From the NCBI GenBank assembly GCA_963514005.1, contig OY740814.1:15376001-15440000 (forward strand): a stretch of DNA of 64,000 nt. Direction: 5' to 3'. The notes below the pieces were generated by a model. The model saw only the letters and a program-made list of their open reading frames with translations, did not search any database and had not been told where the DNA came from. This DNA is from Raja brachyura (lineage: Eukaryota). Shown in pieces: positions 60,349 through 60,490 of the stretch. The position numbers were made by a program, and so were the translations under genes. Within the stretch, counting starts at the first letter, position 1, and the number at the start of each line of letters is the position of its first letter.

Positions 60349-60402
60349 GGGGTGGAAGATTGCAACCTTCACGCGGTCCGCCCTGTTTCGACTAATGCAC
60401 TC
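60349..60402 (+). ncRNA. Predicted minimal HDV/CPEB3-like self-cleaving ribozyme
   Basis: P1 GGGGTGG/CCGCCCT with G1-U wobble; P2 GATTGCA/TGCACTC (one mismatch); P3 ACC/GGT; L3 TTCACGC; GT after P1; TTCGA in place of P4; CTAA J4/2 with catalytic C60392. Confidence 0.75.
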
Positions 60403-60490
60403 AACTCGACGTGCACAAACGGAAGATCAAATAGAACAAGTTGTCCTACAAATTTAGGCTGCGCACGCCACACGGAAGAAGAAGAAGAAG
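60349..60490 (+). mobile_element. Short non-autonomous retroelement with HDV-like ribozyme head, copy 2
   Basis: Inserted in a CR1 fragment; TSD AGC(T/G)TAGGTTTAC at 60336-60348 and 60489-60501; (GAA)n tail. Confidence 0.88.

What the first reader, a model, noticed from the sequence alone, without database searches (positions are those of the whole stretch)
60349..60490. Tiny retroelement whose 5' end is a minimal HDV/CPEB3-type self-cleaving ribozyme
Seen: a 142-nt insert with a 13-bp TSD and a (GAA)n tail. From its very first base it reads GGGGTGG-AA-GATTGCA-ACC-TTCACGC-GGT-CCGCCCT-GT-TTCGA-CTAA-TGCACTC. That gives P1 (60349-55/60378-84, 7 bp, G1-U wobble), P2 (60358-64/60396-402, one mismatch here but perfect in copy 1), P3 (ACC/GGT), a 7-nt L3, a GU for P1.1, a 5-nt loop replacing P4 and a C-N-A-A J4/2 strand. 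Established: this is the nested double-pseudoknot order of HDV-family ribozymes. L3 UUCACGY followed by CCCU-GU closely matches the mammalian CPEB3 ribozyme. HDV-like ribozymes cleave 5' of G1 and are known at the 5' ends of R2, RTE and L1Tc/Ingi retrotransposons. Inference: both copies begin precisely at G1 next to the TSD and show no Pol III A/B boxes. The element may therefore be a promoterless SINE-like parasite that cuts itself out of host read-through transcripts and is then copied by a partner LINE. I do not know of a description of a P4-less (~54 nt) ribozyme heading such an element in cartilaginous fish, but I cannot exclude one.
Basis: partly seen in the sequence, partly recalled or inferred. 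Interest (0 to 1): 0.88.

Follow-up and report, generated by a model that had tools for sequence, protein, structure and literature searches.

The report
Ribozyme-headed mini-parasite of Vingi retrotransposons
A 130-base mobile element with an estimated tens of thousands of copies consists of the two ends of a likely Vingi-type retrotransposon joined together; its front end has the layout of an unusually small hepatitis-delta-type RNA that likely cuts itself out of host transcripts, and related front ends closely match the mammalian CPEB3 ribozyme, which would point to that ribozyme's origin.

Summary
The insert (60349-60488, 13-bp target duplication confirmed by empty sites) belongs to a dispersed family: 6 copies in 599.6 kb of evenly spaced samples, about 27,000 in all. 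It is not a SINE with a borrowed head. I found its parent in the same genome, a ~3-kb single-ORF LINE of Vingi anatomy; the element is the parent's first ~77 nt plus its last ~35 nt. The P4-less HDV-like head comes from that LINE. Sister LINE families start with HDV-like heads whose helices covary, and between parent and two subfamilies the 54-nt head changed at only 3 tolerant positions. Ribozyme-headed internal-deletion parasites are known (R2 SIDEs, NARTc). Not found in print in 10 searches: (1) a P4-less HDV-like ribozyme in an animal LINE; (2) ribozymes in Vingi; (3) complementarity between the stretch after the ribozyme and the 3' UTR (6 of 7 families, mostly not blind); (4) Vingi heads nearly identical to the mammalian CPEB3 ribozyme. 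Cleavage is untested, Rfam scores this head only 13 bits, and poly(A) reads show no cut ends.

The parts
60336..60348 (+). left target-site duplication (13 bp, one mismatch to the right copy)
   Evidence: empty sites in host-repeat paralogues
60349..60402 (+). P4-less HDV/CPEB3-type ribozyme-like head, inherited from the 5' end of LINE family V3
60392..60392 (+). predicted catalytic cytosine (C44), first base of J4/2
   Evidence: kept in 40 of 40 A, 47 of 50 B, 21 of 21 LINE heads; role inferred from the HDV family
60403..60420 (+). rest of the LINE 5' piece; 60410-60417 is the 5' arm of the end-closing stem
60421..60445 (+). linker without a direct match to either LINE end; short duplication plus a stretch complementary to the LINE's last codons (hairpin in most copies)
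   Evidence: origin inferred
60446..60475 (+). LINE 3' piece: last codons, ORF stop at 60455-57, 3' UTR; 60460-60467 is the 3' arm of the end-closing stem (one mismatch in this copy)
60476..60488 (+). (GAA)n tail, same as the parent LINE's
60489..60501 (+). right target-site duplication
34728..34878 (+). second copy (subfamily B) with a private 12-nt L3; 10-bp duplication at 34718-34727 and 34879-34888

Best explanation
The element is the first ~77 and last ~35 bases of a likely Vingi-clade LINE joined by a short linker, and it likely spreads by cutting itself out of host transcripts with its P4-less HDV-type head and then likely being copied into new sites by the LINE's protein. Shown: parentage, dispersal, target duplications, tail, 5' ends at G1, covarying fold in sister families. 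Inferred: a source copy is transcribed from a host promoter, the ribozyme cleaves 5' of G1 using C44 and leaves an RNA that starts at the element's first base; the stretch just after the ribozyme pairs with the 3' UTR and closes the RNA; the LINE protein binds this joined end and primes reverse transcription on the (GAA)n tail. The need for both arms would explain why the parasite keeps both ends.
For: Parent LINE V3: head 87-94% identical to the element over positions ~1-77 and 3' end 87-91% over ~95-132; collinear with an intact 1019-aa APE-RT protein over residues 29-1019 that has no RNase H match; V1-V7, four metagenome LINE groups and an Anolis multicopy protein form one clade (100/99) apart from the two-ORF and the three other LINE families used as outgroups. 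Family-level changes in nt 1-54 between LINE, A and B only at 8 (J1/2), 32 (U-A to U.G) and 45 (after C44), against about a dozen columns in the rest; reads and contigs of 4 runs list only these and CpG sites in nt 1-54 (2 rows not shown). P1/P3 over 11 heads: 92.9% of cells paired, 6 of 10 pairs changed on both sides, best slid control 58.2% (one row misaligned, V6 rows offset, related rows included). In V1, V6 and the short element, copies begin at the first base of P1. 50 of 84 G1-starting copies have a duplication ending exactly at -1, 8-15 bp. End pairing: own family best in 6 of 7 rows at 30 nt, 5 of 7 at 40 nt, diagonal best of 5040 permutations; subfamily B gained two changes that extend the stem to 11 bp. 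R2 SIDEs with this design cleave in vitro (PMC3414825 passages).
Against: No cleavage assay. Rfam 13.3 bits against 44, nothing for a B copy. J1/2 is 2 nt; in the Agam-2-1 ribozyme 0-1 nt spacers were dead or slow (PMC4908430 Results). P1.1 is a single pair and bases 37-44 could form a competing tetraloop hairpin that takes C44. In poly(A) RNA (run X24, 976 reads, about 6% of the run) no pile-up of starts at G1, and at least 321 reads run on upstream of it; this run selects uncleaved RNA, so it is weak. Only 4 of 21 LINE heads align from G1 against 23 of 28 short copies (p 1e-5), partly because 9 of 30 LINE loci are inversions. Sampled V3 copies (5-6% from majority) look older than the short copies (2-4%, biased low) and none of the five V3 loci translated had an intact ORF, so the later driver is uncertain. 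End pairing: five families were seen by eye first; the one blind family (V2) ranked 1st/2nd but z about -1; V1 and V6 are not significant against shuffles on their own; M2 fails; V4 ends were not obtainable.
Confidence: 0.7

Rival explanations
1. Same parentage, but the 5' end is set by an internal RNA polymerase II promoter in the head; the shrunken ribozyme is slow or dead and the 54 nt are kept as promoter or protein-binding site.
For: Pr77 of L1Tc is both promoter and ribozyme (PMC8256844 passages). Low Rfam score, 2-nt J1/2, 1-bp P1.1, no cut ends in poly(A) RNA. Half of the copies (49 of 92) keep an intact fold, a heavy load for host introns if cleavage were fast.
Against: The 5' end coincides with the first base of P1 in families with different head sequences; the three family-level changes all respect the RNA fold; P4-less relatives in phages cleave (theta preprint passages).
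Confidence: 0.17
2. The ribozyme works, but the 5'-3' complementarity is incidental (a by-product of template switching or inversion at the ends) and the two ends are needed independently.
For: Inversions are common in V3 (9 of 30 loci). Shuffle tests are clearly beyond the null only for V3, V5 and M1; M2 fails; most families were not blind.
Against: Arms differ completely in sequence between families yet pair best with their own 3' UTR; subfamily B repaired two mismatches.
Confidence: 0.3
3. A Pol III SINE with a tRNA-derived head that only mimics an HDV fold.
For: Size and copy number are SINE-like; bases 37-44 loosely recall a B box (by eye; motif recalled).
Against: The head is the LINE's own 5' end; ARAGORN finds no tRNA in 5 loci; helices covary in sister LINEs.
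Confidence: 0.03

Closest known systems
R2 SIDEs and R2/R1 hybrid SIDEs of Drosophila (Eickbush 2012, PMC3414825, passages read)
   Same: [quoted passage not shown]
   Different: Those sit in 28S rDNA, are ~500 nt, few in number and have a full P4; this one is 130 nt, dispersed, an estimated 10,000-59,000 copies, P4-less, from an APE-type LINE.
NARTc, RIME and SIDERs of trypanosomatids (L1Tc/ingi clade; PMC4035085, PMC8256844 passages)
   Same: Short derivative of an Ingi-related LINE keeping a ~77-nt head with an HDV-like ribozyme.
   Different: Parent here lacks RNase H and sits in an animal genome; promoter activity of this head untested.
Non-autonomous Vingi derivatives (Vingi-1_EE derivatives, SINE2-1_ACar, SINE2-1_AMi; PMC5786205 passages and supplement)
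   Same: Bipartite 5'+3' structure from a Vingi LINE; this is most likely the filing category.
   Different: That paper lists six LINE clades with ribozymes and Vingi is not among them; it leaves open why only some clades make bipartite derivatives. No end pairing is mentioned in the passages seen.
Minimal HDV-like and theta ribozymes of gut phages (PMC10879173 passages; preprint passages and one section)
   Same: P4 replaced by a short loop, short J1/2, C at the start of J4/2.
   Different: Reported almost only from phages; none found in the human, mouse and protist genomes they searched; role there is tRNA trimming.
Mammalian CPEB3 ribozyme (Rfam RF00622)
   Same: Same L3, single-pair P1.1 followed by U, and in subfamily B the same J4/2; a sister LINE head (L277) scores 55.6 bits against a cut-off of 35.
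   Different: CPEB3 is single-copy, intronic and has P4; the window's head does not match RF00622 at E up to 10.

Membership tests
Bipartite non-autonomous LINE (SIDE) | 5' end matches the 5' end of an autonomous LINE | tested here: met
   87-94% over positions ~1-77 in L231-L234; 21 LINE heads
Bipartite non-autonomous LINE (SIDE) | 3' end and tail match the same LINE | tested here: met
   L231 carries both ends; 29 LINE 3' ends
Bipartite non-autonomous LINE (SIDE) | Spread as a unit by TPRT (dispersed, target duplications, variable tail) | tested here: met
   99 distinct near-full copies; duplications 8-15 bp in 50 of 84
Vingi clade (parent LINE) | Single ORF, APE + RT, about 3 kb, no RNase H | tested here: met
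   definition from PMC13708176 passages. V3 copies are broken, so this rests on collinearity with intact P0001
Vingi clade (parent LINE) | RT tree groups with named Vingi references | tested here: inconclusive
   No named Vingi protein available. One clade (100/99) with an Anolis multicopy RT (not named Vingi by the tool) and with L277, whose head matches the printed Vingi-2_Gav 5' end by eye. No Ingi or RTE reference in the tree
HDV-like ribozyme | Nested double-pseudoknot order P1-P2-P3-L3-P3'-P1'-P1.1-J4/2-P2' | tested here: met
   P1.1 has one pair only
HDV-like ribozyme | Covariation of helices | tested here: met
   Across sister LINE families for P1 and P3 and P2 by fitted parse; within the short family only one wobble change
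HDV-like ribozyme | Conserved cytosine at the start of J4/2 | tested here: met
   40 of 40, 47 of 50, 21 of 21
HDV-like ribozyme | Rfam HDV/CPEB3 gathering score | tested here: not met
   13.3 against 44 bits; none for a B copy; the models contain P4. Sister heads: 55.6 against 35, 24-27 bits below cut-offs
HDV-like ribozyme | Mg2+-dependent self-cleavage 5' of G1, lost in C-to-U | not testable with these tools
   bench assay needed; poly(A) reads inconclusive
Theta ribozyme | Lies at the 3' end of a phage tRNA | tested here: not met
   heads a LINE; no tRNA in 5 loci
Pol III SINE | Head derived from tRNA, 7SL or 5S RNA | tested here: not met
   head is the LINE's 5' end; no such Rfam hit; no dedicated A/B-box scan was run

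The most novel reading that the evidence does not exclude
Vingi LINEs are a ribozyme-processed clade whose RNA is closed end to end; this 130-nt element is the natural minimal template (smallest animal HDV-like ribozyme + closing stem + tail), and the mammalian CPEB3 ribozyme, linked to memory, is a domesticated Vingi head.
Probability: 0.45. Interest if true: 0.86.

Novelty: new variant of a known kind. Interest (0 to 1): 0.67.

Why it matters
It would put a P4-less HDV-like ribozyme, so far reported almost only from phages, into an animal genome at tens of thousands of copies, many presumably inside introns. It offers a testable answer to an open question stated by Kojima 2018 (why RTE, Ingi, Vingi and R2 make bipartite parasites): ribozyme release plus an end-closing stem. 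Vingi-1 is being developed as an RNA-templated gene-insertion tool with templates flanked by both UTRs (PMC13708176 passages), so a natural 130-nt minimal template and a pairing rule are directly usable. The near identity of Vingi heads to the CPEB3 ribozyme gives a concrete origin for that mammalian ribozyme.

Tried and rejected
Rfam at gathering score: nothing in the window. Negative-pattern search for the partner: returned short copies, truncations and nested insertions, no LINE (30 of 435 matches read). The 30 best PF14529 matches were one two-ORF family with an RNase H-like C-terminus (read by eye), not the partner; lower-ranked ones led to it. First end-pairing run cut several 3' arms wrongly and was redone; both are reported. 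V4 3' ends: the 6 fetched copies and L249 share the same interruption, so V4 could not be tested. Metagenome LINEs: of 80 loci only L277 gave an intact head; among 26 upstream regions 1 hit, 0 in reverse-complement and shuffle controls. The strict parser failed on the V1 head (J4/2 has G where others have A) and on one V2 copy. Minimum-energy folding gave no signal for the head. Strand ratio in RNA run X24 (about 360 against 250 in the head) is not interpretable because strandedness is not known. Papers not held: Ruminski 2011, Kojima 2011, Webb 2009, Jimenez 2015; Repbase and Dfam could not be searched. No fold or complex prediction was run.

Full report
Observation. The insert interrupts a common LINE fragment (CR1-like; label recalled); ten uninterrupted paralogues in evenly spaced genome samples show that a 13-bp site was duplicated, so the element is 60349-60488. 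A second copy lies at 34728-34878; its L3 is 12 nt instead of 7, a private change not seen in the 29 other loci fetched with it. My HDV descriptor, written after seeing the element, hits the window once, at 60349-60402, and never in 20 shuffled windows. Rfam gives no hit at gathering score and only a 13.3-bit, E 5.5 match to HDV-F-prausnitzii over exactly those bases.

Family. Three searches of the own genome (2.7 Gb) had 1512, 1116 and 1724 first-look candidates, of which 40 each were scored. Sixty evenly spaced 10-kb stretches held 6 copies in 599,600 bases, which scales to about 27,000 (Poisson range 9,900-58,800). Among 99 distinct near-full copies from all fetched loci there are two subfamilies, 40 A, 50 B and 9 mixed; 86 align from G1, but that set was filtered to start within 12 nt. 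Less biased: 23 of 28 distinct insertions picked by their 3' half start at G1, 3 at position 3, 1 is truncated and 1 inverted; 5 of the 6 sampled copies start at G1. Of 84 G1-starting copies 50 have an 8-15-bp duplication ending exactly at -1, and 34 gave none under my rule; the target base after the duplication is G in 26 of 50, a hint of 1-nt microhomology. DNA or untyped runs of five coded organisms hold over half of the sampled words.

Parent. A Pfam PF14529 search led to a decayed single-ORF LINE (V1, L163) with an HDV-like head. Its endonuclease piece pulled out several related families, one of which, V3 (L231-L235), starts with the element's first ~77 nt and ends with its last ~35 nt and tail. 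L231 has both ends and even a short copy inserted in it. The LINE's stop codon corresponds to 60455-57. V3 is collinear with an intact 1019-aa protein over residues 29-1019 at 52-76% identity, which has endonuclease and RT matches and no RNase H; this is the Vingi anatomy given in PMC13708176 (passages). In an RT tree of 38 rows, V1-V7, the metagenome LINEs and an Anolis multicopy protein form one clade (100/99) apart from five outgroup rows from this genome; there is no named Vingi, Ingi or RTE reference, so the clade name is an inference. About 40 V3 5' regions and 712 candidate 3' regions were found; none of the five V3 loci translated had an intact ORF. One V3 copy (L351) is itself a ~470-nt internal deletion.

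Ribozyme. The P4-less head is the LINE's own. Between LINE, A and B the 54 nt differ at family level only at position 8 (J1/2), 32 (U-A in the LINE, U.G in the short element) and 45 (the base after C44), while about a dozen later columns differ; C44 is kept in 40 of 40, 47 of 50 and 21 of 21. Sister families V1, V2, V4, V6 and L277 parse as HDV-like heads with P4 spans of 18-46 nt and different helix sequences; V5 heads are 5'-truncated but show the same order by eye. On a MAFFT alignment of 11 heads, P1 and P3 are 92.9% paired with 6 of 10 pairs changed on both sides, against at most 58.2% when slid (one row was mis-cut, the V6 rows are offset and several rows are close kin). In V2 the P1.1 pair reads U-A instead of C-G (one copy). 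Against activity: low Rfam scores, a 2-nt J1/2 (0-1 nt was dead or slow in Agam-2-1; PMC4908430 Results), a one-pair P1.1, and poly(A) reads that mostly run through G1 with no pile-up of starts. That library keeps uncleaved RNA and decayed copies, so it neither shows nor excludes cleavage. LINE heads start at G1 less often (4 of 21); 9 of 30 of those loci are inversions.

End pairing. In the short element 60410-17 pairs with 60460-67; subfamily B extends this to 11 bp. The same relation appears in the full LINEs: the 30 nt after the ribozyme pair best with the family's own last 30 nt in 6 of 7 families (5 of 7 at 40 nt), and better than with the window just upstream in those 6; the diagonal is the best of 5040 permutations. 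Limits: five families were noticed by eye first; the blind family V2 (prediction noted) ranked 1st or 2nd but with z near -1; only V3, V5 and M1 clearly beat shuffles; M2 (one 3' end) fails; a first run had faulty arms. I rate functional pairing at about 0.6.

CPEB3 link. The head of metagenome LINE L277 scores 55.6 bits on the CPEB3 model, cut-off 35; a V6 head gives E 1.5e-4. The supplement of PMC5786205 prints the 5' end of Repbase Vingi-2_Gav and alligator SINE2-1_AMi. Counted by eye against the Rfam consensus line, Vingi-2_Gav matches at 38 of 40 bases from P1 to the start of P4 and 14 of 14 from the end of P4 through P2; SINE2-1_AMi also has the CPEB3 P4 stem. Helix sequences vary freely among sister families, so this is more likely descent than convergence. 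The human genome keeps a Vingi relic, X12_LINE (PMC5753468 passages). Direction (LINE to intron) is inferred.

Known and not known. Ribozyme-headed internal-deletion parasites are established: R2 SIDEs cleave in vitro (PMC3414825 passages), NARTc and RIME (PMC4035085, PMC6765202 passages), and bipartite Vingi derivatives (PMC5786205, PMC4494074 passages). [quoted passage not shown] Minimal P4-less forms are reported almost only from phages and were not found in human, mouse or protist genomes (PMC10879173 passages; preprint passages and section 5). Ten library searches (listings only unless named) and term look-ups in PMC8233481, PMC5499810 (no occurrences), PMC8256844 and PMC10274809 (passages) found no report of this element, of Vingi ribozymes, of end pairing or of a Vingi origin for CPEB3. 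Ruminski 2011, Kojima 2011, Webb 2009 and Jimenez 2015 were not held, Repbase and Dfam were not searchable and preprint supplements are closed; any of these could already hold part of this, Ruminski 2011 above all (it reports ribozymes in LINEs and SINEs of several animals). The scan's own index returned nothing by sequence or place and one fungal ribozyme-headed retroposon by words.

Verdict. A real, high-copy, bipartite non-autonomous derivative of a likely Vingi LINE, with a P4-less HDV-type head that likely still cleaved in the source copies. New variant of a known kind; interest 0.67, carried by the minimal ribozyme, the end-pairing rule and the CPEB3 link more than by the element class.

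Noticed in passing
L277:1117-1190 (metagenome contig) and PMC5786205 supplement: LINE head that passes the Rfam CPEB3 cut-off (55.6 against 35 bits); the printed 5' end of Vingi-2_Gav and alligator SINE2-1_AMi are nearly identical to the CPEB3 ribozyme consensus.
   Followed up: partly
L091, L094, L102, L109, L112, L114, L118 (element positions ~80-92, window 60426-60438): Another short, self-complementary repeat inserts again and again at one site inside this element, with a ~13-bp duplication; 11 of the 100 matches listed share its junction. Possibly tail-homology targeting.
   Followed up: no
L332, L335, L336, L339, L344, L345, L346, L350, L356: 9 of 30 V3 5' loci carry the LINE's 3' part inverted just upstream of the head, as twin priming would give, with the joint at or inside the ribozyme.
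   Followed up: partly
L351:~1220-1690 (minus strand), L354: Longer internal-deletion copies of V3 (L351 about 470 nt, starting at G1), possible intermediates of the short element.
   Followed up: no
L163, L171-L230, L236-L250, L391-L410: At least seven Vingi-like LINE families coexist in this genome; five of them were seen to end in a short UTR closing in CG-like bases plus a (GAA)n tail. V2 has an unusual U-A P1.1 pair, and its 3' UTR repeats the P2 5' strand, so it could displace P2 after cleavage.
   Followed up: partly
L121-L150, L157, L167, L170: A young (92-98% identical) two-ORF LINE family of about 5 kb with an RNase H-like C-terminus, many copies near contig ends.
   Followed up: no
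L234:3152-3733: A ferritin heavy-chain-like processed reading frame (label recalled from the sequence) lies inside a V3 LINE copy.
   Followed up: no
window 3052-3990 (+) and 53110-53637 (+): Open frames of 313 and 176 codons in non-repeat sequence, probably exons of host genes; not identified.
   Followed up: no
L398-L402, L408, L249: All V4 copies share the same 3' interruption and flanks: one old insertion multiplied by segmental duplication.
   Followed up: partly
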